Source: a phage
Length of the DNA stretch: 44,111 nucleotides
Strand: one strand, 5' to 3'
Sequence record: PZ379076.1
The notes beneath the pieces were generated by a model, which was given only the letters and a program-made list of their open reading frames with translations, was not told where the DNA came from and made no database searches. Below, one piece after another: positions 1 to 44,111 of this stretch. The translations under genes were made by a program, and so were the position numbers. How positions within the stretch are numbered: the first letter of the stretch is position 1; the number at the start of each line of letters is the position of its first letter.

Positions 1-173
1 AGGCACTGCGTTCTGGTGACGTCACGACTCTGCGGGCTAAGCTGGCGCTGTTCATCAACCAGAACGGCAAACCGATACTTGGACTGCGTCGTCGTACCGC
101 CGGTCGTCTGGCGCTGTTCGACGGTAAACCGTGGCAGGAGGCTGAGGCTATCGGGCGCGCGGTGAAAGGTTGA
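1..173 (+). CDS. endolysin (lysozyme-like), C-terminal part; 5' end is at the window end (43796-44111)
   Basis: Open phase ends TGA 171-173; translation ...GKPILGLRRRTAGRLALFDGKPWQEAEAIG fits the C-terminal G-L-x-RR-x-E-x-LF pattern of phage lysozymes; frame is continuous with 43796-44111 across the junction. Confidence 0.6.
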   Translation, partial: ALRSGDVTTLRAKLALFINQNGKPILGLRRRTAGRLALFDGKPWQEAEAIGRAVKG

Positions 174-239
174 CACATAAGACTAATCCGACGATACTTA
201 AATCACCTCCTGCTCCATCCCTCTGCTCTCCAGTTTTAT

Positions 240-268
240 CCCGGCCCTGACCCAGCCGGGATTTTTTT
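240..268 (+). terminator. rho-independent terminator after the lysis genes
   Basis: Stem cccggc (240-245) / gccggg (255-260), 9-nt loop, then a run of 7 T (262-268). Confidence 0.75.
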
Positions 269-290
269 ATCTATTTTCTGTGATGACTAG

Positions 291-319
291 TTGACTATTA
301 TCCTCGACCCTATTATATT
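291..319 (+). promoter_or_regulatory. sigma70-like promoter for the 354-2492 small-gene operon
   Basis: TTGACT (291-296), 17-nt spacer, TATATT (314-319); ATG at 354 lies ~30 nt downstream behind an aacgagaacggag leader. Confidence 0.55.
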
Positions 320-2609: not shown

Positions 2610-2651
2610 AGACGCGTAGGGCGCGTCTGGTGCGCTCTGATGGTCAGACGC
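2610..2651 (+). promoter_or_regulatory. inverted-repeat cluster at the 5' edge of terS (candidate packaging recognition site)
   Basis: AGACGCG (2610-2616) / CGCGTCT (2622-2628) perfect inverted repeat, plus a third CAGACGC at 2645-2651. Confidence 0.3.
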
Positions 2652-2668
2652 ATATGCAAGGGGATTCT

Positions 2669-3178
2669 ATGAAGCTGAAACTTAAGCAGCCATCGCCAGA
2701 GGTGGTACAAGCTGCACATGAAGAAGCTGTTAGCGCAAACCGTCGCCGTAAACGACCGCGCGGTAAACAGAGCCTTTATCAATCATCCCGTAATTCCGCC
2801 GCGTTGTGGGACCCGGGCTATTGCGATGCACTAATCGAGTTCTTCGACCGCACGTCGTGGGAGCTTGTGCCTACGTCTAAGGGTGACGAACGCCCGCTGA
2901 TTCAGGATAAACCACCGTCACTGGCCCGCTTCGCCTTACACATCGGAGTCACTATCCCGATTATTAAGCTTTGGCTGCGTGAGATTCCCGCATTTGCAGA
3001 AGCCTGGGAGACAGCACAGGCGCTGGAAGAGGCATACTTCACTGAAACGGGGGCCGCGGGCATCTCTGCTACGTTTGCTGCCGCGAAACTGGGCCTGAAT
3101 AAAACAGTTGTCGCCGAAGAAGTACGCGACGAGCCAATCAGCGAAGTAACAATTAAGGTGGTGTCCGGTGAACGTTAA
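2669..3178 (+). CDS. terminase small subunit (putative)
   Basis: ATG 2669 with AAGGGGA SD, inside track ORF 2630-3178; basic N-terminus, immediately upstream of and overlapping the large terminase gene. Confidence 0.6.
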   Translation: MKLKLKQPSPEVVQAAHEEAVSANRRRKRPRGKQSLYQSSRNSAALWDPGYCDALIEFFDRTSWELVPTSKGDERPLIQDKPPSLARFALHIGVTIPIIKLWLREIPAFAEAWETAQALEEAYFTETGAAGISATFAAAKLGLNKTVVAEEVRDEPISEVTIKVVSGER

Positions 3179-4439
3179 TATCACGGCAACGGAGCCGCAA
3201 GGCGCGTTTCTCGGTATGCATTGCAAGTTTCCGGCATTCGTAGCTGGCTTCGGTACGGGTAAATCCGAAGTTATGTGCAACTCTGCACTACTCGACAGCA
3301 TGGAAGGTGGTAGCGATTCTATCATCGCCATGTATGAGCCGACTTATGACCTGGTGCGCCTCATCCTTGCACCGCGTATGGAAGAAAAGCTCACCGACTG
3401 GGGTATCCGGTACAAATACAACAAGTCTGACAACATAATCTATACGTCTTCCGGACAATTTGGGGATTTTGTTCTGCGTACACTTGATAATCCAGCACGA
3501 ATCGTTGGCTACGAATCGTTTCGTGCGAAAATCGACGAGTTGGACACCCTTAACATGGAGCACGCCGAGCACGCGTGGAACAAAGTCATCGCCCGTAACC
3601 GCCAGTTGCCGCGGACATATAAACCTATTACACCGAAACCTGCTAATACCGTTTCCGTGTTCACTACCCCGGAAGGATTCCGTTTCGTACATGACCGCTG
3701 GGTAGTCAAAAAGAATCCAGGCTACGAGATGATTCAGGCGTCCACCCTGTCTAACCCGTTCCTGCCAGAAGATTATGTGCAGTCGTTACGCGACACATAC
3801 CCAGGTCAGTTGATTGACGCCTACATCAACGGCGAGTTCGTCAACCTGACGGCGGGGACTGTCTATTACGCCTATGACCGCAGGAAAAACAGCAGCCGCG
3901 AAACAATAAAACCAGGCGAGACTCTGTATATCGGGCAGGACTTTAACGTAGGCCACATGGCTAGTACAGTTTACGTGCAACGTGGCAAAGTCTGGCATGC
4001 AGTCGCCGAGTTGGTGGATATGTTCGATACGCCCGATGTGGTGAGAGCCGTAACAGAGCGCTGGAAAAGTAAGGGCCACTATATCGTTATGTACCCCGAC
4101 GCAAGCGGTAAAAACCGTAAAAGTAACAACGCCAGCACATCTGATATTGCCCAGTTACAGCAGGCCGGCTTCGAAGTGCGCGCTAAATCGACAAACCCAC
4201 CGGTTAAAGACCGCGTAGCGGCGATGAATAAGGCGCTTGAATCTGGTATGGTCATGATTAATGAACAGGCTTGCCCTGTTACCGCACGATGCCTGGAGCA
4301 ACAGGCTTACGACAAGAACGGCGAACCGGATAAATCAGGCGGTGTGGACCACCAGAATGATGGAACCACATACCCTATCGCGTATGAAATGCCGATTCGC
4401 AAACCAGTTATTAACGTCCCGGTGACTTTCGCACTTTAA
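3168..4439 (+). CDS. terminase large subunit
   Basis: 423 aa; Walker A-like GFGTGKS near the N-terminus; position between terS and portal. Confidence 0.85.
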   Translation: MNVNITATEPQGAFLGMHCKFPAFVAGFGTGKSEVMCNSALLDSMEGGSDSIIAMYEPTYDLVRLILAPRMEEKLTDWGIRYKYNKSDNIIYTSSGQFGDFVLRTLDNPARIVGYESFRAKIDELDTLNMEHAEHAWNKVIARNRQLPRTYKPITPKPANTVSVFTTPEGFRFVHDRWVVKKNPGYEMIQASTLSNPFLPEDYVQSLRDTYPGQLIDAYINGEFVNLTAGTVYYAYDRRKNSSRETIKPGETLYIGQDFNVGHMASTVYVQRGKVWHAVAELVDMFDTPDVVRAVTERWKSKGHYIVMYPDASGKNRKSNNASTSDIAQLQQAGFEVRAKSTNPPVKDRVAAMNKALESGMVMINEQACPVTARCLEQQAYDKNGEPDKSGGVDHQNDGTTYPIAYEMPIRKPVINVPVTFAL

Positions 4440-5966: not shown

Positions 5967-5969
5967 AGT

Positions 5970-13682: not shown

Positions 13683-13684
13683 AT

Positions 13685-14851: not shown

Positions 14852-14856
14852 AACTA

Positions 14857-19647: not shown

Positions 19648-20570
19648 AAGCTAACCAGGAAGAGCAACTGTCTAAGTTGCAGGACTTCTATAGCAATAAG
19701 CTTCTTAGCGACCAACAGTACGAAAACGCCAAGACGCAGATTATGTTATCCGCGGAACAGGCCCGCCAGGAAGAACTGGATAAGAAAAGGAAGGAGGCCC
19801 AGGAGAATCGGCAGAAAGGCGAGGATTTCATGGCTCAGATTATGGGTCAGAACGCCACCGAGCTTGAGCTTCTGGATATTCAGGAACAGCAGAAACTGGC
19901 AGTAGCCGATAAGTACCGTGAACAGGGTCTTATTAGCGAGAAGCAGTATCAGGCCACGCTTAACGCCATCAACGAGCAGTACGCAACCAAGCGAGCCGAT
20001 GCAACGGCAACCGCTTTCGGCAACATGGCGTCCAATATTGGGTCCGCGTTAGGGGAGGCATCCGGGGCTTATAAGGCGTTCGCTATTGTACAGGCCACGA
20101 TAGCCACGTACACCGCAGCTATTGAGGCGTACAAGTCAACGGCTGCTATCCCTGTTGTTGGCCCGTTCCTGGCCCCTGTAGCCGCTGCCGCTGCCGTTGG
20201 GGCTGGTATGGCGCAGATTTCCGCTATCAGGTCCGCGCGTGAACAGGGCGGTCAGTTATCAGCCGGGCAGGCTTCTACCATCGCTGAACGCGGTAAACCA
20301 GAAGTTATCATGCCCGCTGGCGCGTCGCGTGTACGCACAGCACAGCAGATGAAAGAAATTATGGGGCAAAACGGGTCTTCTTCCGGCCCGTCTAATGTTA
20401 CCATCGTAAACAACACGAGTTCTCAAATCGGCAACGTATCCACTGAGCAAGATGATGAAGGCCGTTTGCGAATCATCATCGAGGAGCAGGTGGCTGCCTC
20501 TTTGCAGAACAGCAACAGCAAGATTAGCAAGGCCCGCAAAGCCACAAGAAATGCGCCGGGGTTTAAATAA
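19554..20570 (+). CDS. tail tape measure protein, C-terminal part in the -1 frame
   Basis: -1 frame opens at 19554 and continues with the same composition to 20570 (track ORF 19677-20570); one extra A in the run at 19582-19586 would fuse both parts. Confidence 0.6.
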   Translation, partial: ESGGRVRAPEKAAEDFYYQSIHLNDDVFQKIEANQEEQLSKLQDFYSNKLLSDQQYENAKTQIMLSAEQARQEELDKKRKEAQENRQKGEDFMAQIMGQNATELELLDIQEQQKLAVADKYREQGLISEKQYQATLNAINEQYATKRADATATAFGNMASNIGSALGEASGAYKAFAIVQATIATYTAAIEAYKSTAAIPVVGPFLAPVAAAAAVGAGMAQISAIRSAREQGGQLSAGQASTIAERGKPEVIMPAGASRVRTAQQMKEIMGQNGSSSGPSNVTIVNNTSSQIGNVSTEQDDEGRLRIIIEEQVAASLQNSNSKISKARKATRNAPGFK

Positions 20571-22492: not shown

Positions 22493-22854
22493 ATATTAAC
22501 GACTACACGGGAATACCTTACGACTTTCGCAAACGTAATTGCTGGCATCACGTGCGCATTGTCCGCGCGGATGCCGGGTTAGAAACCCCAGCGTTCGACG
22601 TTGCAAGTCCAACGGCGATTAACGAAGCGTTCGACGAAGGACATCGCAACACGAAGGGACTTACAAAAATTGATAAGCCTGAAAACTTCTGTGCGGTGCT
22701 TATGGGGTATCGCCGCGGCGGTCGTATCGTGTGGCACGCAGGAGTTTACTTCGACGGGATGGTGAGCCATTGCGAGCTTGCTTCCCGTCAGGTACGGCTT
22801 GACAGGCTGGCGGATCTCAGAGACACGTACACGGAGATTGAATTTTGGCGATAA
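22489..22854 (+). CDS. tail assembly protein (gpK position, possible Cys/His peptidase)
   Basis: 121 aa; conserved Cys-His (NCWHH) near the N-terminus and His-Cys (SHCE) near the C-terminus; ATGA overlap. Confidence 0.4.
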   Translation: MNINDYTGIPYDFRKRNCWHHVRIVRADAGLETPAFDVASPTAINEAFDEGHRNTKGLTKIDKPENFCAVLMGYRRGGRIVWHAGVYFDGMVSHCELASRQVRLDRLADLRDTYTEIEFWR

Positions 22855-24332
22855 TCCTGCACTACACGCGAAACGCTGATGGCGCTTTCAACCGTACAAA
22901 ACACGTCGGGATGCCGATGGAGTTTGTCGTTAACCGTATCCCGGACGGCGTTCCGGTACGCGTCTATCTTGGCGAGATTGGTGATGATACTGATGTTACA
23001 GACGACTTCGACGCGCTCAAAGACGAGGACGCCGTGTACCACATTATTGAGGGCGCTGGCGGCGGCATTGGCGACGCCATCGGGAGTGTATTCAGTTTCA
23101 TCCTTAAGCCAATCGCCAAATTGTTCGGGCTAAACACAGCGGCTAACGCTAATTATTCCGCTACCAACAATCAGGCTACGTCGCCTAACAACAGTCTCAC
23201 CGACCGCTCAAACAAGCCACGACCTTATGAGCGTTCCTATGATATCTGCGGGACAGTGCAGACCATCCCCAATGACCTGATGCAGACATATAAGGTGTTT
23301 AATGCCGCGGGTGCGCTTATTGAATATGCGTACTATGACGCCGGTCGAGGGTATCTGCATATTGAGGAAGACGGTGTAACGGAGGCGGATACCCGAATCA
23401 GCGAGATAACTGGCTCGTCGGTGACGGTGTATCCCCCTTATACTTCGCCAAATAATACCAGCACCCCACAATTGCATATCGGCGACCCTATAGACCAGAA
23501 ATTGTACGTTACATTTAAAAACGCCGATGTCGATGGCGCTGTTCTTCCCGCACCTAATGACATCGCTATAGACGTGCAGGACTACACTGTCCAGCGGCAG
23601 GGAACAACAGGTGTTGTAATAGGCGATGACGCTGGTTTCGATGAGTTTTTGGCTGTCGGGGACCTGGCATATTTCGATAACGTATATGCGGACACAACTC
23701 CTGGGTCTTTAGGTAATGAGGTTAACTTAGACGGGAGGTACACTGTTCTTTCGGTTAGTGAAACCACCATTATTGTGGACGTCAGTACAAATCAATCAGT
23801 ATGGAACCAGCTAGGGGCGTCTGTGTGGTTTATAGGTGAAGAGGGTAACCATCTTATAGGCCCGGCGGACACTTACGCGGCTTCTCTCTCTGAATGGGCG
23901 TACATCACCCGCGGTACTGTCGACCGTGTTGTAGCCAATGTCGCCGCCAGCAACGGCATGTACAAATACAACGGCGACTATAACCGCGCTTCAGTGACAG
24001 TCGAACTGCAATACCAGATGGTAGATGAATTGAAACAGCCTGTAGGTGACATATTTACCGTACGAGGAACCGTAACAGGCCGGAACACGGATTACACAGG
24101 GATTACTCTTTACGGAAGTTTACCAACTGCTTCCAGATTCCGCGCCCGTATGCGTCGTGTTTCGGACACCGATAAAGATTTTGAAGGTACTGTTAGCGAC
24201 GAGGTTACTTTCACTAATCTGTATGGGCAGTCGCTGGACACAACCCCCACTACGGCAACCGTACTACCGTACACTGCGCCCGTAAACAAACCCCACGTGC
24301 AGCCGAGGTGTCCGAACCGGAACTGCGCATGA
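22845..24332 (+). CDS. tail tip protein with gpI-like N-terminal region
   Basis: 495 aa (TTG start in track); glycine-rich hydrophobic segment GAGGGIGDAIGSVFSFILKPIAKLFG as in lambda I-type proteins. Confidence 0.5.
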   Translation: MAIILHYTRNADGAFNRTKHVGMPMEFVVNRIPDGVPVRVYLGEIGDDTDVTDDFDALKDEDAVYHIIEGAGGGIGDAIGSVFSFILKPIAKLFGLNTAANANYSATNNQATSPNNSLTDRSNKPRPYERSYDICGTVQTIPNDLMQTYKVFNAAGALIEYAYYDAGRGYLHIEEDGVTEADTRISEITGSSVTVYPPYTSPNNTSTPQLHIGDPIDQKLYVTFKNADVDGAVLPAPNDIAIDVQDYTVQRQGTTGVVIGDDAGFDEFLAVGDLAYFDNVYADTTPGSLGNEVNLDGRYTVLSVSETTIIVDVSTNQSVWNQLGASVWFIGEEGNHLIGPADTYAASLSEWAYITRGTVDRVVANVAASNGMYKYNGDYNRASVTVELQYQMVDELKQPVGDIFTVRGTVTGRNTDYTGITLYGSLPTASRFRARMRRVSDTDKDFEGTVSDEVTFTNLYGQSLDTTPTTATVLPYTAPVNKPHVQPRCPNRNCA

Positions 24333-25411
24333 TTGCAACCGAGATGTGCTACAAATACTTAGGTAACGGCGTATTCGATACGGTAATGACACCGAACACT
24401 CAGGCCGTGCAGTCGCTAATCAGGCTGGCGCGTGACCCTGTGGTGGGTAATCTGGAACTGACAACGGCAAATATGGACAAGTTACTTGCCGTGCAGGAAG
24501 AAATTGAGTCGTATTTTGACAGTGAATTAGCCGGGCAGTTCTGCTACACATTCGACGACTACGACACAACCATGCAAGACATCGTTCAGACCATCGCGGA
24601 AGCCGTGTTTTGTACGGCATACCGTAAAGGTGCTGATATTATGCTGCGATTCGACCGTCCTGTTGCGGGGCCTGAGATGGTTTTCACCCACCGCAGCAAA
24701 ACGACCGGTACGGAGAAATGGACGCGCACGTTCAACGATTCGACAACCTACGATAGCCTGTCGTTCTCGTACATTGACCCGGATACAAACGTACAGGAGA
24801 CGATTTATATCCCGGAAGAACTCGGCGCGAACACCGAGGAGTACGAATCGAAGGGTGTACGTAACTATCAGCAAGCGTACTGGCTGGCGTGGCGTCGCTA
24901 CCAGCGCAACACGTTAAGTAAAGTTGTCGTAGAGTTCGAAGCTACCGAAGAAGGCGCTCTCGCTACTCCCGGCGGCGTAATCAGTGTGGTTAAAGGCTCG
25001 CGTATCGCGCCGCAGGATGGTTATGTTGTTGCCGTCAATGGCCTTACGCTGACGCTGTCTCAGCCTGTTACGTTTACTCCTGGTGATGACCATTCCATCA
25101 TCCTCAAGAAGCGCGACGGCTCTGTGCAGAGTATTTCTGTTATCAAAGGAAGCCACGACCGCGAAGTGATTATGCTCTCCGCGCCGGAGGAGGCAATCTA
25201 CACGGGGAATAGCGCACTAAAAACTGAGTTTTCATTCGGCAACGAAGCAAGGCATAATGCTCAGAAGATAGTTGTTTCTTCAATCGACCCCGGCGACGAC
25301 CGCACGGTCAAGATTACTGGTTACAACTATGACGACGGATTCTATAAATACGACGGCGTCGCGCCATACGGCAGCAGCTTCTCCGACGGATTCAGCAATG
25401 GTTTTAATTAA
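24329..25411 (+). CDS. tail tip / host specificity region protein (hypothetical)
   Basis: ATG 24329 overlaps the upstream TGA (ATGA); track ORF 24308-25411 opens on GTG. Confidence 0.5.
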   Translation: MIATEMCYKYLGNGVFDTVMTPNTQAVQSLIRLARDPVVGNLELTTANMDKLLAVQEEIESYFDSELAGQFCYTFDDYDTTMQDIVQTIAEAVFCTAYRKGADIMLRFDRPVAGPEMVFTHRSKTTGTEKWTRTFNDSTTYDSLSFSYIDPDTNVQETIYIPEELGANTEEYESKGVRNYQQAYWLAWRRYQRNTLSKVVVEFEATEEGALATPGGVISVVKGSRIAPQDGYVVAVNGLTLTLSQPVTFTPGDDHSIILKKRDGSVQSISVIKGSHDREVIMLSAPEEAIYTGNSALKTEFSFGNEARHNAQKIVVSSIDPGDDRTVKITGYNYDDGFYKYDGVAPYGSSFSDGFSNGFN

Positions 25412-25423
25412 AGAGGACTCTAT

Positions 25424-27409
25424 ATGTCAAGCGGATGCGGTGACGTTTTAAGCCTGGCGGATTTACAGACCGCCAAGAAACATCAGATTTTCGAGGCCGA
25501 GGTTATCACTGGCAAATCCCGCGGTGTAGCTACGGGTGCAGACATTGATTACGCAACAAATCAGGTTACCGGGCAGACGCAGAAGACGCTTCCTGCCGTG
25601 TTGCGCGACGCGGGTTTTTCTCCGGTGTCATGGGATTTCTCCACAGGCGGCACGTTAACCGTTAACGACCGGGACAAGGTGGTGTATGACCCTGTTAGCA
25701 AAACATGGTACTCGTACGCAGGTACGTTACCAGTTGTTGTCCCTGCATCGTTTAATCCAGTCGGTAACGCTAACTGGAAGCCGCAGACAGACCCAAATTT
25801 GCGTAATGATTTGGCGTCAAGTACCGCCGGTTTAGGGGCTTCACTGGTGTCTTTTTCCAACGGTAACACCGTTGAAACATTATCTGACGCGGAAGGTGCC
25901 AAGAACATAGGCAGTGGCGAAAGGAGTTTGCTTGCACGTAACAATGATATTAAGCATTCTGGCGACTTTTCTACCCTTCAAGCCGCGGTAGATGCGTCGT
26001 TAACTAAAAACGACTTAATTGTTTCTCCGGGTGAGTATACAGAAGCAATCACTCTGGGTAGTAAGCAGATAAAAGGTGTAGGTGGTGCTGCAATATTAAA
26101 ACCATCGGCAAACTATGCAAATACTGTACAGGTTAATTTATCCACCCCGCACTGGCAGTTTCGACACAGCGGTGGTTTTGCCGTAGATGGTACAGGTACA
26201 ACTGGGGCCGTAGGTATTAGTTTTGACCCGTCAGACCAATATTCCGGACGTCATAATTTTAGTGATTTATACATCCACAACATCAACAAGGCCATTCAGA
26301 AGCCTTCCGGGAACATCGGTAATACATGGAGAAATATTGGGGTATCTACGTGTGATTGGGGGTATTACGCGATTAGTGGCTCAGAGATGCATTGCGGGGC
26401 CGATACCCTCTACAATATCCACTTCGACGGCATCTCCACCTATGCCGTCTACCTAAACGGCACTGTCGATAACGGCGGGATAGGCGGATGGTGGCTTAAA
26501 GACTCCATTATTGAGGCTTCCGGAGGCGGCGGGATATATTTAAAAAGCAAATCAGGTGACTGCCCTACATCTCCATGCGGGGTATCCAATGTATGGACGG
26601 AAGCGATTGCAACATCATCGGCTGTTCAGGTAGACGGCGTGGCGCAAAAACCGCGAGTTCTCAAGTTGGTAGACACCGCGATATTCTTTGCTGAGTATTC
26701 TTATCTCAACAACATCGAGCTATCCAACTCCAACTTAGTAACTTATGGTTGCCGTTTTGACAACGCCGATGGTAATCAGGATATTGTAGTGGATGCACAA
26801 AGCACCATCGTAGCCCACGACGTGTATTTAAACGGCAGCTCTGGAAAGGACGTTATTGTAGAGTCTGTCGCGTCGCAATCCGCAACGATAGCCACTACAA
26901 ACTTGTCTCTACGAGGAAATTTAACAAGGGGACGAGTGTTTAATACGCCGACGGGGAATAAGTTAAAAGCTATCACATTTGACTCAGGTAGCCATAATTT
27001 TTCTGGTAGCGGTACCGTTAACGGTTCGACTGTATCTGACGGACTTCACGCCGCTACATGTACCGAATTTTCATTCCCTGGGTCCGGTTTATATGAAATG
27101 GTAGCGTCAAGAACGACACTTACATCCGGTAGATGGTACGTGTGGGGCGTCAACTCTCGCCTCCAATCAGGAACAGCAGATGTGAGTATAACGTTAGGTA
27201 TTACTATGGGTAGCGTTTATACTAAGTCTGGTGAGTGGATTAGCACATTTGGGGTGGGTAAAGCTTCCGCTAACGGTACTGTAGGTCTGTACGTCTCTAC
27301 TGGGGGAGGTTCAGGTGCTGTTATCAGATTTAGTGACTTCTTCATCGCTGAGTTTACGACGCAGGCTCAGGCTTTAGCTTTCGCTAACTCCCGAATGTCG
27401 TTGGCTTAA
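25424..27409 (+). CDS. tailspike / tail fibre with probable beta-helix (depolymerase-like) domain
   Basis: 661 aa; last tail gene; Gly/Asn/Ser/Thr-rich repeats typical of beta-helix receptor-binding proteins. Confidence 0.65.
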   Translation: MSSGCGDVLSLADLQTAKKHQIFEAEVITGKSRGVATGADIDYATNQVTGQTQKTLPAVLRDAGFSPVSWDFSTGGTLTVNDRDKVVYDPVSKTWYSYAGTLPVVVPASFNPVGNANWKPQTDPNLRNDLASSTAGLGASLVSFSNGNTVETLSDAEGAKNIGSGERSLLARNNDIKHSGDFSTLQAAVDASLTKNDLIVSPGEYTEAITLGSKQIKGVGGAAILKPSANYANTVQVNLSTPHWQFRHSGGFAVDGTGTTGAVGISFDPSDQYSGRHNFSDLYIHNINKAIQKPSGNIGNTWRNIGVSTCDWGYYAISGSEMHCGADTLYNIHFDGISTYAVYLNGTVDNGGIGGWWLKDSIIEASGGGGIYLKSKSGDCPTSPCGVSNVWTEAIATSSAVQVDGVAQKPRVLKLVDTAIFFAEYSYLNNIELSNSNLVTYGCRFDNADGNQDIVVDAQSTIVAHDVYLNGSSGKDVIVESVASQSATIATTNLSLRGNLTRGRVFNTPTGNKLKAITFDSGSHNFSGSGTVNGSTVSDGLHAATCTEFSFPGSGLYEMVASRTTLTSGRWYVWGVNSRLQSGTADVSITLGITMGSVYTKSGEWISTFGVGKASANGTVGLYVSTGGGSGAVIRFSDFFIAEFTTQAQALAFANSRMSLA

Positions 27410-27414
27410 AACTA

Positions 27415-27436
27415 AGGCCCCAAACGGGGCCTTTTC
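27415..27436. terminator. bidirectional rho-independent terminator
   Basis: Stem aggcccc (27415-27421) / ggggcct (27426-27432), loop aaac; T-rich on both sides; between convergent genes. Confidence 0.7.
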
Positions 27437-27575: not shown

Positions 27576-28087
27576 CTGGTAAATTTCCTCGCAAGATACG
27601 TTATTTCTTCTTCACAAAGTTCATCAAGGTCGTTAGATACAAATCCTCTGGTGAATGTTTTGCTGAACTTTAATCCAGCTTTATCATTGTCGCCAGCGCA
27701 CACCCAGTCATACGGCAAAAGTGACATTTGCTGCCGTAGGTCTGTTGATATATTTGACCCCAGTGCGCTTACAGCATTGAACCCGCAATTCATCAAGGCT
27801 ACGGCTTTGAATATGCTTTCGGTAACAAATACCACCCCGCTTTCCGGCAAATACTCAAGCCCCCATAAACACGGCCTTGTTGTTCTGGTAAAGTACCGCG
27901 CGTCTTTAGGGTTTTTACAGTTCTTTTCGGCATGTGGTTTGTAATGCTGGTATCCGCGAAGCCTACCGTCAAACCCCCACAGGTAAAACGTAGCTACTCC
28001 AGGGGCTAAGACTACCTGGAGACGGTCAGCGTCAAACCCACGCGCCAGCAGATGAGCTTTAAGTAGAAACTCTTCGAAATCCATCAT
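27572..28087 (-). CDS. Toprim-domain protein (primase-like)
   Basis: 171 aa; ...VFVTESIFKAVALMNCGF...WVCAGDNDKAG gives the conserved Glu and DxD of the Toprim fold. Confidence 0.55.
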   Translation of the reverse strand: MMDFEEFLLKAHLLARGFDADRLQVVLAPGVATFYLWGFDGRLRGYQHYKPHAEKNCKNPKDARYFTRTTRPCLWGLEYLPESGVVFVTESIFKAVALMNCGFNAVSALGSNISTDLRQQMSLLPYDWVCAGDNDKAGLKFSKTFTRGFVSNDLDELCEEEITYLARKFTR

Positions 28088-29430
28088 TTCTTACCTCGTC
28101 TCTTCATGTAATTAAGCAACTCTTCCTGTACCGATTTCTTCTCGTCGGTACGCGCGGCGACAACCTCGTCCAGAGTGTCTTTAGCAACGATGTGATAAAG
28201 GAACACCGGGCGCTCGTGTCCTGCTTGCTTCTGGCGTACCGGGCCTATACGCTCGACAACCTGCAAATAGTGCTCAAGGTTCCAGCCTTGCGAGATGAAC
28301 GCCAGATGATGTCCGCCGTCCTGTAAATTCAAACCATGACCGGCTGACGCAGGATGTACGCATAGGATTTCGATTTCACCGCGGTTCCACGCTTCCATCT
28401 GCTTATTACCCTTAGCGCCTTTTGCAAACGCCTGGGCCTGCGGGAATCGCTTAAGGATGCGCTCCAGTTCGTGCTTAAACTGATAGGCCACCAGTAGCGG
28501 CGCTCCCTGTAACTCCTCCACAATGGACTCGAGCGCATCCAGTTTCGTGTCGTGCACTTTCTCCCAGTCTTTGGTCGCTTCGCCATCCGGCCCTGACACA
28601 TACACGGCACCAGATGCAATCTGCAAGCACTTTGAGGTCTTCGCCGCAGCGTTAGCCGCTTCAACTTCCCCGCTCTCCAGTTCTGCGAATAACTTCTCCT
28701 CCATATCTATGTACGCCTGACGCGCTTTCTTCGGCAGGTCTATTTCCACCGGTACGATAACAGGCGCTTCACAACCAAACCACTCGGCAGGGTCTATGGT
28801 CAGGCTGATGTCTTTCATCTTCTGATGAATCTCATTATCCGCACCCGGTCGTGCATGATACTCGCGGGCCATAGCCGATTTACCTTTCTGTACCGAGTTA
28901 AACCAGCGGTCGGTGAATGCTGTGTACGAAGAGCCGAGGCGCTCGCCAGCGTCGATAAACCAGTTCTGACCCCACAAGTCTTTGAGGCCGTTTGGTGACG
29001 GTGTGCCTGTCAGGTTGATGAAACGCTTAACCTTTCCGAACGCAACCTTGCTGAGCGCCTTTGCCCGCTTGCTACCACCCGAACGGCTGCGGAACGATTT
29101 AAGCTTCGTGCTTTCATCGGCAACGATAACCGTAAAAGGCCAGTCGTCTTTGCCGTAGTAGTCAATTAGCCACTCGATAACTTCGTAGTTAGTGCACACC
29201 ACGTTAGCATCTGACTCCAGCGCTGCGATGCGGCGCTTCTCCGAACCAGTTGCATCTACGACACGCAGACAAGGGAATTGCCATTTCTCTTGTTCAGCGG
29301 GCCACGTACCGGACGCAACACGTAACGGGGCAAGGATTAACACGCGGTCCTCTTCCGTAAGCTGCCCGTTGCGGAACAGGCGGTTGAGCACCCACATAGT
29401 GGAGGAGGTTTTACCTCCCCCATTCCGCAC
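28084..29430 (-). CDS. SNF2/SF2-family helicase, as called in this frame (N-terminus displaced by a frameshift)
   Basis: 448 aa; GGGKTS (motif I), VIVADESTKLK (DExx), LTGTPSPN (motif III), late HPASAGHGLNLQ; track ORF starts on GTG just downstream of a C5/G5 run. Confidence 0.8.
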   Translation of the reverse strand: MRNGGGKTSSTMWVLNRLFRNGQLTEEDRVLILAPLRVASGTWPAEQEKWQFPCLRVVDATGSEKRRIAALESDANVVCTNYEVIEWLIDYYGKDDWPFTVIVADESTKLKSFRSRSGGSKRAKALSKVAFGKVKRFINLTGTPSPNGLKDLWGQNWFIDAGERLGSSYTAFTDRWFNSVQKGKSAMAREYHARPGADNEIHQKMKDISLTIDPAEWFGCEAPVIVPVEIDLPKKARQAYIDMEEKLFAELESGEVEAANAAAKTSKCLQIASGAVYVSGPDGEATKDWEKVHDTKLDALESIVEELQGAPLLVAYQFKHELERILKRFPQAQAFAKGAKGNKQMEAWNRGEIEILCVHPASAGHGLNLQDGGHHLAFISQGWNLEHYLQVVERIGPVRQKQAGHERPVFLYHIVAKDTLDEVVAARTDEKKSVQEELLNYMKRRGKK

Positions 29431-29704: not shown

Positions 29705-29734
29705 TTCTCAATTCCTTATATTGTTGGTGTAAGG

Positions 29735-30019
29735 CTAACTATAATAGTTCGCTATTAGGGTGTCAACCTGTTTGAACGAACCAACTACAAAAACATTTGC
29801 ACCACGCTTACGCATCCGCTCGTGCTCTCGTAACTGGTGCGGGTCAGGCTTCGTGCTTTCGTCTTTCTTCACCTCGACGAACCAGACGATGCCGCCAGGG
29901 AGAATTACCAGCAGGTCGGGAGCGCCGGAACGCCCCTCGTAGGAAAGTTTACGAACGAGGCCCCCAAGGGCCTCAAATCGCTCTTTTGCGTATTTCTGGA
30001 TGCGGCCCTCTTTAGTCAT
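29735..30019 (-). CDS. VRR-NUC-like PD-(D/E)xK nuclease
   Basis: ATG 30019 inside track ORF 29735-30199; ...GAPDLLVILPGGIVWFVEVKKDES...QLREHERM fits the D...E-V-K nuclease core. Confidence 0.55.
   Translation of the reverse strand: MTKEGRIQKYAKERFEALGGLVRKLSYEGRSGAPDLLVILPGGIVWFVEVKKDESTKPDPHQLREHERMRKRGANVFVVGSFKQVDTLIANYYS
29738..29766 (-). promoter_or_regulatory. strong sigma70-type promoter, TTGACA-N17-TATAGT family
   Basis: Minus strand TTGACA (29766-29761), 17-nt spacer with AATAG-N4-CTATT, TATAGT (29743-29738). Confidence 0.65.
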
Positions 30020-30382: not shown

Positions 30383-32552
30383 AGCGTTTTAACTCCTGAC
30401 CTTCCGCTACAAGAGGGAACCCCTCCGCCCATTCTGGTAATTCGCACATCAATCGCTCAAGCTCTGCGACATTGTATTCCGGCGTATCTGGAGTTTCGCA
30501 GATAATCTCATCGTGGACATGAAGTACAATTGGATAACCGTTTGCTTCTACGTTCAGCAGCGCGTTGGCCAGCAAATCACGGCACAACGCCTGAGTGCAG
30601 TTTTCCACCAGTTTACCAGAGTAGGTGTACTGGAAGCCCCACTGCCGGGTTAACTGGTTTTCGCCCTGGTACTTGATGCGCACGTTAGTAGACACCTTTC
30701 CATCTTCGTCTGTCTCTTTCGACACACTTAATCCGACGCCCGGGTATGACATAACGCGACCCGACGGCAACGTCATGCGCAACCACCAGCCCGCGACTTT
30801 GTCGCCGTTGTTGTCTGTCTCTATGTTACGCGAAAACTTAACGCCTCGCGGTCCTGCGGTGAACTCTTTACCTGGATTGCGGATAGCGGCCATAGCTGCG
30901 TCTTCAATATCTCGCCAGAAAGCTACTGTTTCAGGGTGTGACTCTCGCCACATACGCTTGATAGCGTCACAGGTACGCCACACTTTCTTATCAAGAATAT
31001 ACGATGGTCGGTCATCCTTCTCCCCGGGTCGCGGCGGTCGCTTGGCTTCCTGAATACGTGCCCATTCATAGCCGCGTGCAGTAGCCGCCCAGATGTGGTC
31101 CGGGAAAGTACCGTCCATTGTTTTTGACATATCAACAAGGTCAAGTCCGAGGTTCTTAGCAAACTGAACGAAAGCGCCAACACCACCAGCGTAGCCGAGG
31201 CCAAGCTCGCAGGCTTTACCAATCTGGCGCAAGTCTTTGCGTTCCTTCTTAATGTAATCCGGCTCCATGCCGAACATCTTACCCGCGGTTACACAGTAAA
31301 TGTCCAGCCCGGCGCGGAACGTATCTAGCGCGGTTTCTTCGCCTGCCAGCCACGCAAGCCCCCGACCTTCAACGTTAGAGTAATCGGCAACGACAAACTT
31401 ATGCCCTGCTTCCGGTATGATGCAGCTACGAACGGTCGATGCCGTTAGCTTGGCCACATCGAAACGGCGATGGGCGCGACCCTTAAGTAACGCCGAAATG
31501 CCTTTATCCAGCTCATCATCGTGATAGTAACCGCGTGCCAGGTTCTGCGGCTGGAAGCCTTTACCGGCCCATCGCAGAGTACGCTTTGCCCCACCGTACT
31601 GGATACAACCGCGGCGTCGGTCGTCCGACGAGCGGCCTAACAGCAGCGGGTTATATTTCGTGGACGCTGTTGACGCGGCCCCGAGGCGCATTTCGATAAT
31701 CATCCGGGCGTCGTCCGGTAAATCATCATCTGCCAACAGGTCGTTAAGCGTCGACTTCTGTGCATTGTGTATGTGGTGCGCGGGCGCAAGTTCACGCAGA
31801 ATCGGAAGGAAGTCTTTACCGGTAAGCGAGCCGCCGTATTTACGTTGAGCTTCTTCCTGTAACTGTGCCTTGTGCTTCTCTACGGCTTCAATCGCGGCTT
31901 CCGCCAGTGCGACGTCAACCTTAAATCCGCGGTCGTTGATTAACTGGTCAAGTTCCAGTACACGGTCTTCGAACTCGGAGTTACCCCAACGCGGCAGCTT
32001 ATGGAAGACTTCACGCATCGCAGTGATGTCGCTCACGGCGTACCTGATGAACATCGCCCACTCGTCAGGGTGAGTTTCTGCGGTGTAGCGGCGGATTTTG
32101 TAGTTCTTCGGCGTCGGTTTAGAGAAACGCTTAATCAGAGCCTTGCCGCGTTTATCTTTCGCGTTGTCTGCAGACACGCCCAGCACTTCGCACAGCGCAT
32201 CAAGAGAACCCGGCAGCGCGTGACGGAACGCCCAAATCATAGTATCAATGGTGTTACTTACCGGAATATCAAAGTCCCAGCAGTGTTTCATGATTAGGCG
32301 ATCGAAAAGTCCACCGTTGTGCCACACCATCTTGATGCGGCTGTTGGGCTTAACAAGGCGGCGCAGTGCGCGGTGTAAATCCCCCGGCATGTCGCTGCCG
32401 TCGGTGCAATCCCATACCCGCACAGGTTCGTCGTCAAAAGCATATGTACAGATAAGCACTTCGGTTGACGGGTGTTCGGCGTAAGCGTAAGAACCGACTT
32501 TCTTCAAATCGGCTTCTGAGAATGTTTCAAAGTCTAAGAACAGGTAACTCAT
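30372..32552 (-). CDS. DNA polymerase, family A, with 3'-5' exonuclease domain
   Basis: 726 aa; Exo I FLDFETFS; polymerase motif A DYSNVEGR, motif B-like K...LGLGYAGG, motif C VHDE. Confidence 0.9.
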   Translation of the reverse strand: MSYLFLDFETFSEADLKKVGSYAYAEHPSTEVLICTYAFDDEPVRVWDCTDGSDMPGDLHRALRRLVKPNSRIKMVWHNGGLFDRLIMKHCWDFDIPVSNTIDTMIWAFRHALPGSLDALCEVLGVSADNAKDKRGKALIKRFSKPTPKNYKIRRYTAETHPDEWAMFIRYAVSDITAMREVFHKLPRWGNSEFEDRVLELDQLINDRGFKVDVALAEAAIEAVEKHKAQLQEEAQRKYGGSLTGKDFLPILRELAPAHHIHNAQKSTLNDLLADDDLPDDARMIIEMRLGAASTASTKYNPLLLGRSSDDRRRGCIQYGGAKRTLRWAGKGFQPQNLARGYYHDDELDKGISALLKGRAHRRFDVAKLTASTVRSCIIPEAGHKFVVADYSNVEGRGLAWLAGEETALDTFRAGLDIYCVTAGKMFGMEPDYIKKERKDLRQIGKACELGLGYAGGVGAFVQFAKNLGLDLVDMSKTMDGTFPDHIWAATARGYEWARIQEAKRPPRPGEKDDRPSYILDKKVWRTCDAIKRMWRESHPETVAFWRDIEDAAMAAIRNPGKEFTAGPRGVKFSRNIETDNNGDKVAGWWLRMTLPSGRVMSYPGVGLSVSKETDEDGKVSTNVRIKYQGENQLTRQWGFQYTYSGKLVENCTQALCRDLLANALLNVEANGYPIVLHVHDEIICETPDTPEYNVAELERLMCELPEWAEGFPLVAEGQELKRYVK

Positions 32553-33238: not shown

Positions 33239-33293
33239 TTCTCGATTCCTCAGTTTTCAGTTTACTCCGGGAGCTGCCCGGCCAGTGATTAGA

Positions 33294-33322
33294 ACTATAA
33301 TAGCTAACTATTCAGGTGTCAA
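33294..33322 (-). promoter_or_regulatory. strong sigma70-type promoter, TTGACA-N17-TATAGT family
   Basis: Minus strand TTGACA (33322-33317), 17-nt spacer with AATAG-N4-CTATT, TATAGT (33299-33294). Confidence 0.65.
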
Positions 33323-36071: not shown

Positions 36072-36099
36072 ATCCGCCCCTCTCGTTTGGTATGGGCTA

Positions 36100-36128
36100 A
36101 CTATAATAGCGAACTATTCACATGTCAA
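36100..36128 (-). promoter_or_regulatory. strong sigma70-type promoter, TTGACA-N17-TATAGT family
   Basis: Minus strand TTGACA (36128-36123), 17-nt spacer with AATAG-N4-CTATT, TATAGT (36105-36100). Confidence 0.65.
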
Positions 36129-39677: not shown

Positions 39678-39706
39678 TTGACTTTTACTAAGAAATGTGC
39701 TAAGCT
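39678..39706 (+). promoter_or_regulatory. promoter of conserved element copy 2
   Basis: TTGACT (39678-39683), 17-nt spacer, TAAGCT (39701-39706). Confidence 0.45.
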
Positions 39707-39815
39707 CCACCTGAGCTTGTGAAGTATGAACAAGCGACCGCGGTGCGGCAGGAAACGGAGCGGTGCGTCAGCACTGAGTGTAGTGTCGCTGCCTGCATTC
39801 GGAAGGGCCATAATC
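39701..39815 (+). repeat. conserved ~115-nt element, copy 2
   Basis: Matches 7886-8000; stem-loop GGUGC-gtca-GCACU at 39762-39775 replaces GGGAC-gtaa-GUCCU of copy 1. Confidence 0.85.
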
Positions 39816-39907
39816 TATTGTAAATCCCGTCTAAATAACCCAAGTCACTAATAATTAAAAGTTTCTATAGTTGCCGTAAGCAAGGTAGAGAGTACTTCAC
39901 TCCGCTG

Positions 39908-42691: not shown

Positions 42692-42693
42692 TT

Positions 42694-42876
42694 ATGGTGC
42701 AGAGATATACCTACGACCAGATATTCGGGTTTACTCCTGATGTTGAGGGCGTGTTAGTGCTTTACGAAGATTACGCGAAACTTGAAGCTGAGTTACAGAA
42801 ATACAAAGACCAGTACCCTGATTACGTCGAGTGCGCGAACTGTGGGTCGGTTACACATGTGGAGGGGGTGGAGTGA
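42694..42876 (+). CDS. hypothetical protein
   Basis: ATG 42694 with AGGAGAAG SD inside track ORF 42688-42876; CANCGS motif. Confidence 0.5.
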   Translation: MVQRYTYDQIFGFTPDVEGVLVLYEDYAKLEAELQKYKDQYPDYVECANCGSVTHVEGVE

Positions 42877-43169
42877 TGTCGTTAGCAACTGACATCCTGA
42901 AACGAAGCGGCCTTGCGCCGCTGTCACCGAGAGCGAAGACACGTATACACAAGCGTCGCCGTAACGTGCTGTACCCAGAGATACAAGAACGGCGTAAAGC
43001 TATCCGCGCCTGTGGATTCCAGAACGGAAAGGCCGTGAATCTAGGAGAGTTTAAAACACAGGAACGCGCGGCAATCGCTAATCGGTTATTTAATTACTGG
43101 AAATCGTTGGGATACGATGATATTCCATCGAAACCGCAGAGACGACAATACATCTGGCGTCATAAATAA
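42876..43169 (+). CDS. hypothetical basic protein
   Basis: ATG 42876 (TGATG overlap) inside track ORF 42831-43169. Confidence 0.5.
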   Translation: MSLATDILKRSGLAPLSPRAKTRIHKRRRNVLYPEIQERRKAIRACGFQNGKAVNLGEFKTQERAAIANRLFNYWKSLGYDDIPSKPQRRQYIWRHK

Positions 43170-43199
43170 ACCGTTATTAAGATAATTCCTAACCGTGCT

Positions 43200-43239
43200 A
43201 TCCTCCAGTTACTGCATACTTAATACGCACCTGGAGGAT
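43200..43239 (+). promoter_or_regulatory. stem-loop sequestering the SD of the holin-like gene
   Basis: 9-bp stem atcctccag (43200-43208) / ctggaggat (43231-43239), 22-nt loop; 3' arm contains GGAGGA, 6 nt before the TTG start at 43245. Confidence 0.45.
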
Positions 43240-43244
43240 TCATC

Positions 43245-43553
43245 TTGGATAAATTTACTGAAACAGTGACGGGGTGGCTTCTCGCTGCCGCACTGGTCGG
43301 TGGATTGGTCGGACTAAGACAACATAAAAAGTCTATATCCGGGCCGATTGACGGACTGGTATTTCTTCTCACCGGCTTCGCGTGCGCCATTTTCGGCGCA
43401 CCTCTTGCCGCTCAATGGTTTGGTATTACTGGCGAGCGCGAGATAGCTGGCCTCGGATTCATCATTGCCATTCTCTGGATGCCAATTTATTCCCGTCTCT
43501 CTGGCATTGTCGCCGGAGAATACATCGCACGTCGCGGAGGTGGTAATGAATGA
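43245..43553 (+). CDS. holin-like membrane protein (three predicted TM helices)
   Basis: 102 aa, TTG start; three hydrophobic helices and charged C-terminus; two genes upstream of the lysozyme. Confidence 0.55.
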   Translation: MDKFTETVTGWLLAAALVGGLVGLRQHKKSISGPIDGLVFLLTGFACAIFGAPLAAQWFGITGEREIAGLGFIIAILWMPIYSRLSGIVAGEYIARRGGGNE

Positions 43554-43818
43554 GTTATTCTGGTTTGGTGGTATGCTCGCAATCGGGAGCACATCGCTGT
43601 TTAACGTATACCACCCCAGCGTAGATGATGGCCTGTTCGGGCGTGTGCTTTATATTCTGACTGCTATTGTCTGCGCCGCCGGATGTATCCACCTGTTACA
43701 GGGCAGCATGTCACCTACGTTGCCTGAGACATTAATCACTTTAGTTGCGCTGCGCCAGATTCGTCAGGCGTGGCTGTCGTACGGAGGACATAAGCGTGTC
43801 TCGAAACATTTCAGATAA
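43546..43818 (+). CDS. second small membrane protein of the lysis cassette (holin/antiholin candidate)
   Basis: ATG 43546 inside track ORF 43465-43818; two hydrophobic helices; overlaps neighbours. Confidence 0.45.
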   Translation: MNELFWFGGMLAIGSTSLFNVYHPSVDDGLFGRVLYILTAIVCAAGCIHLLQGSMSPTLPETLITLVALRQIRQAWLSYGGHKRVSKHFR

Positions 43819-44111
43819 TGGGTTGCATTTCACCGCAGCGTTTGAGGGGTTCCGCGGAACTGCGTATCGTGCTACGCCAAATGAGAAGTACCTGACTATT
43901 GGGTACGGTCATTATGGGCCAGACGTAACGCCAGGCAAGACCATCACCCCGGGACAAGGCCTCCTGTTACTGAATCGTGATATGGCTAAGGCCGTAGCTG
44001 CGGTTGACGCAGCAGCACACCATTCATTGACACAGGCACAGTTCGACGCAGTGTGCGACCTGGTGTATAACGCGGGTGCCGGTGTGATTGCGGCTACTAC
44101 TGGCACAGGTA
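43796..44111 (+). CDS. endolysin (lysozyme-like), N-terminal part; 3' end at window positions 1-173
   Basis: GTG 43796 with GGAGGA SD; translation ...AAFEGFRGTAYRATPNEKYLTIGYGHYG... resembles the catalytic E...TIGYGH region of phage lysozymes; runs off the window end in frame with 1-173. Confidence 0.7.
   Translation, partial: MSRNISDNGLHFTAAFEGFRGTAYRATPNEKYLTIGYGHYGPDVTPGKTITPGQGLLLLNRDMAKAVAAVDAAAHHSLTQAQFDAVCDLVYNAGAGVIAATTGTG

What the first reader, a model, noticed from the sequence alone, without database searches (positions are those of the whole stretch)
43796..44111. Window ends are contiguous: lysozyme gene wraps from the right end into the left end
The ORF starting at GTG 43796 runs off the window end after 316 nt; positions 1-173 are an open frame in the matching phase (last base 44111 plus bases 1-2 form a codon) ending TGA 171-173. 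The joined 162-aa product has lysozyme-like motifs at both ends. The window is therefore most likely a full circular or circularly permuted genome opened inside the endolysin gene.
Basis: partly seen in the sequence, partly recalled or inferred. Interest (0 to 1): 0.5.

Follow-up and report, generated by a model that had tools for sequence, protein, structure and literature searches.

The report
Endolysin gene split by arbitrary genome opening
The two ends of this sequence join seamlessly inside an ordinary, already well-studied phage lysozyme gene, so the window is a complete E. coli phage (Kagunavirus) genome that assembly software happened to cut open at that spot, which is a bookkeeping artefact and not new biology.

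Summary
GTG 43796..44111 (316 nt) plus 1..173 reads as one 489-nt frame of 162 codons plus TGA, with junction codon A|AG = Lys106.

- **Product:** it is a full-length GH24/T4-type phage lysozyme (Pfam PF00959, 94 bits). It is 93% identical, without gaps, to the solved endolysin mtEC340M (PDB 8HP8). It has the same length as EC340 of phage PBEC131, an experimentally active enzyme.
- **Junction:** the joined DNA matches one uninterrupted stretch in 105 deposited phage genomes, at 99.6% in Escherichia phage vB_EcoS-22664BS2 (Kagunavirus). In whole-genome alignments, window 44111→1 maps to adjacent bases of two independently assembled relatives. No base is missing or duplicated.
- **Completeness:** the whole window is a collinear rotation of those genomes.

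This is a unit-length Kagunavirus genome opened arbitrarily inside the endolysin gene. Literature on the genus points to headful (pac) packaging, meaning circularly permuted virion DNA, but that cannot be shown without reads.

Interest is low. The gene, its family and the genome type are all known.

Two things were noticed in passing. Three single-base homopolymer deletions break essential genes, so the window is probably a draft-quality assembly. A two-copy, highly conserved structured RNA candidate that is absent from Rfam heads the operon that ends in this endolysin.

The parts
43796..44111 (+). Endolysin gene, 5' part: GTG start, codons 1-105 and the first base of codon 106. Contains the catalytic Glu17.
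   Evidence: PF00959 hit on this fragment alone at 2.9e-21. The same start and span are annotated as lysin/endolysin in MZ234010 (817-1305) and MZ576217.
1..173 (+). Endolysin gene, 3' part: the last two bases of codon 106, codons 107-162, and stop TGA 171-173.
   Evidence: This fragment alone matches 8HP8 residues 107-161 at E=5.7e-30.
43782..43787 (+). Shine-Dalgarno-like GGAGGA, 8 nt upstream of the GTG start.
   Evidence: Read directly from the sequence.
43245..43553 (+). Holin-like protein 1 (102 aa, hydrophobic segments).
   Evidence: PHROG 2359 holin at 9.2e-31. Hydropathy. Annotated as holin-like class II in MZ576217.
43546..43818 (+). Holin-like protein 2 (90 aa). Its 3' end overlaps the endolysin start by 23 nt.
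   Evidence: PHROG 2508 holin at 2.9e-33. Hydropathy. Annotated as holin-like class I in MZ576217.
238..270 (+). Terminator-like hairpin (8-bp G+C-rich stem 238-245/255-262, 9-nt loop) followed by a T7 run. Probable end of the transcription unit that carries the lysis cassette.
   Evidence: RNA fold gives -13.8 kcal/mol, z = -2.9. The consensus scan did not call it because its loop limit is 8 nt.
291..319 (+). Sigma-70-like promoter (TTGACT-17-TATATT) ahead of the next block of small + strand genes.
   Evidence: 10 of 12 matches. This is a consensus match only.
2630..3178 (+). Terminase small subunit. This is the usual location of a pac site in headful phages, about 2.6 kb from the window break.
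   Evidence: PHROG 3064 terminase at 2.1e-74. Annotated as terminase small subunit in MZ576217. The pac location is an inference from P22-type phages.
3168..4439 (+). Terminase large subunit.
   Evidence: Pfam Terminase_6N and Terminase_6C. Weak, sub-threshold PBSX-family TIGR01547 match. The K1G/K1H-type TerL clusters with headful packagers (PMC5582158).
8116..8611 (+). Rz-like spanin pair (8116-8502 and the partly overlapping 8468-8611). This is the remaining lysis function, encoded about 8 kb from the holin-endolysin cassette.
   Evidence: PHROG 2536 at 1.2e-54 and PHROG 5672 at 1.1e-30. Annotated as putative spanins in MZ576217.

Best explanation
The window is one complete, unit-length genome of a virulent E. 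coli siphovirus of the genus Kagunavirus (Guernseyvirinae). It was assembled as a circle and then written out from an arbitrary position that falls in codon 106 of the endolysin gene. In the real genome the gene is intact.

The gene encodes a 162-aa single-domain, soluble GH24 (T4-lysozyme-type) muramidase with no signal-anchor (SAR) segment. It is the last gene of a holin-holin-endolysin cassette, followed by a terminator. As in canonical holin-endolysin lysis, it should accumulate in the cytoplasm and reach the murein when the holins permeabilise the inner membrane. The spanins encoded elsewhere would then disrupt the outer membrane.

The sequence closes on itself most probably because virion DNA is packaged by a headful (pac) mechanism from concatemers. 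That gives terminally redundant, circularly permuted linear molecules with no unique ends.

Shown here: the contiguity of the ends, the identity and completeness of the gene, and the completeness and collinearity of the genome. Inferred: the lysis mechanism (from close homologues) and the packaging mode (from literature on relatives).
For: - **Joined frame:** 162 aa plus stop.
- **Family:** PF00959 at 94 bits against a cut-off of 22.3, spanning the junction at residues 15-138.
- **Closest solved structure:** 150 of 161 residues identical to PDB 8HP8 with no gap. EC340 of phage PBEC131 is also 162 aa and is active in a zymogram (PMC8886149).
- **Catalytic residue:** Glu17 aligns with T4 lysozyme Glu11.
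- **No SAR segment:** maximum 19-residue hydropathy in the first 30 aa is 0.03.
- **Junction in other genomes:** 119 phage records match the joined gene and 105 cover at least 80% in one place, the best at 99.6%.
- **Seamless junction and full collinear rotation** against MZ234010 and MZ576217.
- **Ungapped alignment across the junction** and an exact 56-mer in an IMG/VR contig.
- **No end repeat or long internal duplication**.
- **Length differences from relatives** are explained by accessory-gene indels far from the junction.
- **Record start points differ:** the lysin lies at positions 361 to 42434 in related records, on both strands.
- **Neighbouring genes:** holins upstream and spanins elsewhere, and a terminator-like hairpin downstream.
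- **Packaging:** K1G/K1H TerL groups with headful phages (PMC5582158). PhageTerm found no termini in Kagunavirus fBC-Eco01 (PMC9825357). A pac mechanism is predicted for the Guernseyvirinae-like phage Shashou (PMC6776780).
Against: - No reads are available, so closure is shown by homology to relatives and not by junction-spanning reads from this sample.
- The window carries no terminal repeat that would document circular closure by the assembler.
- The packaging mode is inferred from relatives. The window's TerL has no hit to any solved terminase and only a sub-threshold PBSX-family match.
- The T4 lysozyme Asp20 equivalent appears to be Ala26 in a 26%-identity alignment, so the classical Glu-Asp-Thr triad is not fully reproduced. 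The close homologue EC340 is nevertheless enzymatically active.
Confidence: 0.95

Rival explanations
1. The window ends are the true physical ends of a linear virion genome with fixed termini inside the endolysin gene. The gene would then be reconstituted only after the injected DNA circularises or forms concatemers.
For: Nothing positive. The window has unique ends and no reads are available to exclude it directly.
Against: - There is no terminal repeat or cohesive-end-like feature at the ends.
- More than 100 relatives carry the gene intact in the interior of their records.
- Termini were not detected in a Kagunavirus by PhageTerm, and the TerL clade is of headful type.
- In headful phages pac sites usually lie in or near terS, which is 2.6 kb away (inference).
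- The break falls in mid-codon of a conserved gene.
Confidence: 0.02
2. The window is an incomplete contig. Sequence is missing (or duplicated) at the break and the in-frame fit of the two ends is fortuitous.
For: Frame continuity alone would occur by chance at roughly 20% of positions in this genome. The window is 1.0-1.2 kb shorter than the two closest relatives.
Against: - The junction maps to adjacent bases in two relatives and aligns without gaps in a third.
- The protein aligns residue for residue with 8HP8 across the junction.
- The length differences are located at accessory-gene indels elsewhere, for example relatives' 31003-31686 and 7045-7499 in MZ234010.
- All functional modules are present.
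Confidence: 0.01
3. The molecule is physically circular in the sampled material, as a replicative intermediate or plasmid-like episome, and is not circularly permuted linear virion DNA.
For: A unit-length sequence that closes on itself is equally compatible with a true circle. The sample type is unknown.
Against: - All close relatives are isolated virulent siphoviruses with linear dsDNA.
- Terminase and portal genes are present.
- No plasmid-type functions were noticed in the relatives' annotation. I did not search for them specifically.
Confidence: 0.02

Closest known systems
Endolysin EC340 of E. coli phage PBEC131 (engineered form mtEC340M, PDB 8HP8; LNT113)
   Same: Same length (162 aa). 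93% identity to the engineered form over 161 residues without gaps. Single PF00959 lysozyme domain with no cell-wall-binding domain.
   Different: 11 substitutions relative to mtEC340M, which itself carries seven engineered changes. The activity of this particular allele is untested.
Lysin of Escherichia phage vB_EcoS-22664BS2 (MZ234010, CDS 817-1305) and the endolysins of other Kagunavirus genomes
   Same: 99.6% nucleotide identity over all 489 nt. Same GTG start, same overlap with the upstream holin, and the same downstream intergenic region.
   Different: In those records the gene lies inside the record. Here the record is opened within it. The rest of the genome is only about 87-97% identical in its main aligned blocks and is mosaic in its accessory genes.
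T4 lysozyme (gpe) / GH24 family, including P22 gp19
   Same: Same fold family by Pfam and PDB sequence searches. Catalytic Glu (T4 E11 = Glu17) and Thr26-equivalent (Thr34) are conserved. It is a soluble, holin-dependent enzyme.
   Different: Only 26% identity to T4 lysozyme. The Asp20 position aligns with Ala26 and there is a 2-residue insertion before the TIGYGH motif.
Circularly permuted, terminally redundant genomes of headful-packaging phages (P22, SPP1, T4 type)
   Same: The unit-length sequence closes on itself with no unique ends. Relatives are deposited with many different start points. The TerL clade groups with headful packagers and PhageTerm finds no fixed termini.
   Different: Packaging was not examined experimentally or in reads for this genome. 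No pac site was identified.

Membership tests
Pfam PF00959 / GH24 phage lysozyme | Domain match above the curated gathering score over essentially the whole profile | tested here: met
   94 bits against 22.3. Residues 15-138 match profile positions 2-122 of 125.
Pfam PF00959 / GH24 phage lysozyme | Catalytic glutamate (T4 lysozyme Glu11) | tested here: met
   Glu17 aligns with Glu11 in BLASTP against T4 lysozyme.
Pfam PF00959 / GH24 phage lysozyme | Asp20 and Thr26 of the classical Glu-8-Asp/Cys-5-Thr triad | tested here: inconclusive
   Thr34 aligns with Thr26, but Ala26 aligns with Asp20 and there is a 2-residue insertion in between. The alignment has only 26% identity. The same residues occur in the active homologue EC340/8HP8.
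Pfam PF00959 / GH24 phage lysozyme | Muralytic (muramidase) activity | not testable with these tools
   Only the homologue EC340 has been shown to be active, by zymogram (PMC8886149).
Canonical (holin-dependent, cytoplasmic) endolysin as opposed to SAR endolysin | No N-terminal signal-anchor-release or transmembrane segment, and adjacent holin gene(s) | tested here: met
   Maximum 19-residue Kyte-Doolittle mean within the first 30 aa is 0.03. Two PHROG holins lie immediately upstream.
Genus Kagunavirus (Guernseyvirinae) | Genome-wide nucleotide similarity of at least about 70% to members of the genus (ICTV genus criterion, from my own knowledge) and a shared gene order | tested here: met
   93% of the window aligns to MZ234010, with its main blocks at 87-97% identity, fully collinear after rotation. 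The closest records are all classified as Kagunavirus.
Complete genome that closes on itself (circular map) | The two ends are adjacent in the biological sequence with no gap or overlap | tested here: met
   Adjacent bases in two relatives. Ungapped alignment and an exact 56-mer in a third. Gap-free protein alignment across the junction.
Complete genome that closes on itself (circular map) | Junction-spanning reads from the same sample | not testable with these tools
Headful (pac) packaging, circularly permuted virion DNA | Terminase large subunit belonging to a headful clade | tested here: inconclusive
   Only generic Terminase_6N/6C matches, a sub-threshold PBSX-family match and no PDB relative. 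The assignment rests on published trees for K1G/K1H (PMC5582158).
Headful (pac) packaging, circularly permuted virion DNA | No fixed termini in read-start analysis, or a submolar pac fragment in digests | not testable with these tools
   Reported only for relatives: no termini in fBC-Eco01 and a pac prediction for Shashou.

The most novel reading that the evidence does not exclude
For the finding itself, the only unusual reading is that the virion has fixed ends inside the endolysin gene, so that lysis-gene expression depends on circularisation. I put that at 2% or less.

The most novel thing the evidence leaves open lies just outside the finding. The + strand block of genes that ends in this wrapped endolysin begins about 4.4 kb upstream, directly after a roughly 119-nt structured RNA candidate (39706-39824). 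I infer from gene orientation alone that this block is one transcription unit. A second copy (7891-8009) precedes the spanin and structural genes.

The element is not in Rfam. It is at least 95% conserved across Kagunavirus and Jerseyvirus despite 60-80% genome identity. It shows compensatory base changes. Copy A is followed by a terminator-like hairpin.

It could be an undescribed cis-acting regulatory RNA, for example a put-like antiterminator or a pair of sRNAs, that times late or lysis gene expression in Guernseyvirinae. The probability given is for 'a real, functional and so far undescribed RNA element'. The antitermination mechanism specifically is much less certain, at about 0.15.
Probability: 0.5. 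Interest if true: 0.55.

Novelty: already known. Interest (0 to 1): 0.08.

Why it matters
In practical terms, the sequence should be treated as a complete, circularly closing Kagunavirus genome. It should be re-opened at a conventional point, such as the terminase genes, before annotation. Otherwise gene callers will miss or truncate the endolysin, which is a therapeutically relevant enzyme (the EC340/LNT113 family), and the genome may be wrongly judged incomplete. Biologically it adds nothing new, because the gene, its lysis cassette and the genome type are all documented. The draft-quality signals (three homopolymer frameshifts) matter for anyone who reuses the sequence. The conserved two-copy RNA element is the only lead of wider interest.

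Tried and rejected
- **Exact-protein look-up:** I had no exact-protein proxy for junction-spanning reads and used an exact 56-nt junction search in IMG/VR instead.
- **Terminator scan:** the consensus scan found no terminator in 1-700. The hairpin at 238-262 has a 9-nt loop, outside the scan's rule, and was confirmed by folding.
- **Weak or empty protein searches:** Pfam gave nothing for the holins, spanins or TerS, and PHROGs resolved them. TerL has no relative among solved structures, and NCBIfam gave only a sub-threshold PBSX match. I therefore could not assign the packaging class myself.
- **C-terminal fragment:** the 56-aa fragment alone has no Pfam hit. It is recognisable only through the close homologue 8HP8.
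- **Terminal repeat:** none was found in the window.
- **The window's own record:** its best matches in the phage collection cover 84-98% of the stretches queried at 93-96% identity, so no near-identical record is there. IMG/VR holds only related contigs.
- **tRNAs:** none.
- **RNA side lead:**
  - There is no Rfam match at E of 1 or below.
  - It is absent from 5,426 complete E. coli genomes.
  - Only one true copy turned up among GTDB species genomes, on a 6-kb contig of a Bacillota MAG that may be a mis-binned phage contig. The two weak Pseudonocardiaceae hits are probably chance.
  - No paper among the best-ranked results of the literature search connects these phages with a non-coding RNA or antitermination.
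- **Possible fourth frameshift:** a frame change at 42692-42694 was rejected, because relatives annotate two separate genes there.

Full report
**1. The observation**

The right end of the window carries GTG at 43796, preceded by GGAGGA at 43782-43787. An open frame runs 316 nt from there to base 44111. 316 = 3 x 105 + 1, so the last base (A) needs two more bases. Bases 1-2 are AG, giving AAG (Lys). The same phase stays open to TGA at 171-173. The joined frame is 489 nt, or 162 codons plus stop. Every coordinate in the finding is correct.

Frame continuity by itself is not remarkable. 21.6% of + strand positions in this coding-dense window begin a stop-free run of at least 57 codons, against 7.8% after shuffling. 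The case rests on homology.

**2. What the joined gene is**

The joined protein matches Pfam PF00959 (Phage_lysozyme) at 94 bits against a gathering score of 22.3. The match covers residues 15-138, which is profile positions 2-122 of 125, so the domain spans the junction at residue 106.

Against the PDB, the top hit is endolysin mtEC340M (8HP8). It aligns residues 1-161 to 1-161 at E=2.6e-97 with no gap, and 150 of 161 residues are identical. More distant hits are other phage lysozymes, including P22 lysozyme 2ANV.

Taken separately:
- The N-terminal 105 residues give a truncated PF00959 hit over profile positions 2-86.
- The C-terminal 56 residues have no Pfam hit of their own, but they match 8HP8 residues 107-161 at E=5.7e-30.

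The two pieces are therefore the consecutive, non-overlapping parts of one protein.

EC340, the parent of mtEC340M, is a 162-aa endolysin of E. coli phage PBEC131. It has a single lysozyme domain, no cell-wall-binding domain and demonstrated zymogram activity (PMC8886149).

Glu17 aligns with the catalytic Glu11 of T4 lysozyme, and Thr34 aligns with Thr26. The Asp20 position aligns with Ala26, in an alignment of only 26% identity. The N-terminus is not hydrophobic, so this is not a SAR endolysin.

**3. Contiguity of the ends and completeness of the genome**

- The joined 489 nt match 119 phage records. In 105 of them a single place covers at least 80% of the query, and the best is 99.6% over 100% in Escherichia phage vB_EcoS-22664BS2 (MZ234010, Kagunavirus).
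- That record and MZ576217 annotate the same 489-nt span as lysin or endolysin, preceded by two holin-like genes.
- In whole-genome blastn, window 42991-44111 aligns to MZ234010 12-1132 and window 1-5911 aligns to 1133-7044. In MZ576217 the corresponding junction is 41848|41849. No base is missing or duplicated at the junction.
- The rest of the window is a collinear rotation of both genomes. 93% of it aligns to MZ234010 and 89% to MZ576217. The unaligned segments are paired with unaligned segments of similar position in the relatives, which indicates mosaic accessory genes.
- The window is about 1 kb shorter than these relatives. This is explained by accessory insertions in the relatives far from the junction, for example MZ234010 31003-31686 and 7045-7499.
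- An IMG/VR contig of 44,829 bp contains the exact 56-nt junction sequence in its interior. It aligns across the junction over 1,390 nt with no gaps.
- The window has no terminal repeat and no long internal duplication.

**4. Genomic context and mechanism**

Upstream of the endolysin lie two holin-family genes:
- 43245-43553 (PHROG 2359).
- 43546-43818 (PHROG 2508), which overlaps the endolysin start by 23 nt.

Both have strongly hydrophobic segments.

Downstream, at 238-262, is an 8-bp G+C-rich hairpin followed by a T7 run (-13.8 kcal/mol, z = -2.9). A sigma-70-like promoter follows at 291-319, ahead of a block of small genes leading to terS (2630-3178) and terL (3168-4439).

The spanin pair lies at 8116-8611, inside the structural module.

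The inferred mechanism is the canonical holin-endolysin-spanin pathway. This rests on established knowledge and on the close homologue, not on a test performed here.

**5. Why the sequence closes on itself**

All close relatives are isolated, virulent siphoviruses of the genus Kagunavirus.

- In published terminase trees, the K1G/K1H-type large terminase groups with headful packagers (PMC5582158).
- PhageTerm found no obvious termini in Kagunavirus fBC-Eco01 (PMC9825357).
- PhageTerm predicts a pac mechanism for the Guernseyvirinae-like phage Shashou (PMC6776780).
- The endolysin gene lies at very different positions and on both strands in related records, so depositors open these genomes wherever convenient. 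Many open at terL.
- MZ234010 still carries an exact 51-nt overlap between its two ends, which is a typical residue of a circular assembly path.

My own attempt to classify the window's TerL gave only generic results. The packaging mode therefore remains an inference from the literature. The break point, in mid-codon of a conserved gene and 2.6 kb from terS, has no features of a physical end.

**6. Verdict on the finding**

The feature is an artefact of where a circular assembly was linearised.

- The endolysin is 99.6% identical at the nucleotide level to a deposited gene, and it belongs to a structurally and biochemically characterised family.
- The genome as a whole is a further member of a well-sampled genus. 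Its best matches cover 84-98% of the two stretches queried at about 93-96% identity.
- Interest is low.
- The practical consequence is that the genome should be rotated before annotation.

**7. Things noticed in passing**

(a) *Homopolymer frameshifts.* Three single-base deletions relative to both relatives fall in short nucleotide runs:
- About 19583, GG to G next to an A5 run.
- About 24247, C6 to C5.
- About 29420, C6 to C5.

They split the tape-measure gene, the J-like tail gene and the helicase gene. Such breaks would be lethal in a real phage. They look like homopolymer sequencing errors, consistent with a draft assembly.

(b) *A two-copy structured RNA candidate.* A roughly 119-nt element occurs at 7891-8009 and 39706-39824. 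Each copy follows a TTGACT-N17-TAAGCT promoter-like site with an upstream TGn.
- Copy A is at least 95% identical in nearly all of the 181 phage records that match it, including Salmonella Jerseyvirus phages. Most Salmonella-phage genomes are only 60-80% identical to the window overall.
- Five sequence variants each fold on their own into the same architecture. This is an invariant hairpin plus a long irregular hairpin with conserved internal loops and a fully compensated variable tip.
- A covariance model finds 60 copies in the 55 sources searched. Both complete relatives (MZ234010 and MZ576217) and the window carry two each.
- 96.2% of cells are paired, against 28-42% when partners are slid. 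Seven pairs show changes on both sides, against 1-2 when slid. The covariation score is 0.186, against 0.038 or less. The caveats are that the alignment was fitted to the model and that the lineages are few.
- There is no Rfam match at E of 1 or below.
- It is absent from 5,426 complete E. coli genomes.
- Only one further true copy was found in GTDB species genomes, on a short contig that may itself be phage DNA.
- Copy A is followed by a terminator-like hairpin (8072-8091) and then the spanin and structural genes.
- Copy B precedes the unbroken run of + strand genes that ends with the holins, this endolysin and the terminator at 238-262.

A put-like cis-antiterminator or an sRNA pair are possible functions. 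Neither was tested.

(c) *Rfam hit.* Rfam int-alpA RNA (RF02996) matches 17369-17433 just above its gathering score.

(d) *Other repeats.* Minus-strand promoter-like 34-nt repeats lie at 29733, 33289 and 36095. Twin terminator-like hairpins lie at 14846-14877 and 27404-27435.

Noticed in passing
window 7891-8009 and 39706-39824 (+), with promoter-like sites from 7863 and 39678: A two-copy structured RNA candidate of about 119 nt. It has an invariant hairpin plus a long hairpin with compensatory changes. Copy A is at least 95% conserved across Kagunavirus and Salmonella Jerseyvirus phages. It is not in Rfam and is absent from E. coli genomes. Copy A precedes a terminator-like hairpin and the spanin and structural genes. 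Copy B precedes the + strand gene block that ends in the holin-endolysin cassette. It may be a cis-antiterminator or an sRNA pair.
   Followed up: partly
window ~19583, ~24247, ~29420: Three 1-nt deletions in short nucleotide runs, relative to two relatives, split the tape-measure gene (18232-19647 / 19677-20570), the J-like tail gene (22845-24332 / 24308-25411) and the helicase gene (minus strand, 28084-29430 plus the upstream piece). These are most likely homopolymer sequencing errors in a draft assembly.
   Followed up: yes
window 17369-17433 (+): Rfam int-alpA RNA (RF02996) match at 36.6 bits, just above the gathering score of 35.8, next to the short divergently oriented ORFs at 17333-17521 (-) and 17458-17874 (+).
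   Followed up: no
window 8116-8502 and 8468-8611 (+): The Rz-like spanin pair is encoded inside the structural-gene module, about 8 kb from the holin-endolysin cassette, so the lysis genes are split between two transcription units.
   Followed up: partly
L003 (MZ234010.1) 1-51 and 45126-45176: The deposited record of the closest relative ends with an exact 51-nt copy of its own start. This is probably a leftover assembly overlap, in which case its true unit length would be 45,125 bp.
   Followed up: yes
window 29733-29766, 33289-33322, 36095-36128; 14846-14877 and 27404-27435: There is a repeated 34-nt motif that reads as a TTGACA...TATAGT-type promoter on the minus strand, ahead of the replication-gene blocks. 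There are also two near-identical G+C-rich hairpins with T/A runs on both sides, which look like bidirectional terminators, close to the ends of the long + strand ORFs 13679-14851 and 25424-27409.
   Followed up: no
PHROG 33703 (matches residues 86-161 of the joined endolysin): The best PHROG hit is a 76-position 'endolysin' family that covers only the C-terminal half of the protein. This suggests that truncated or split copies of this gene exist in other deposited phage genomes.
   Followed up: no
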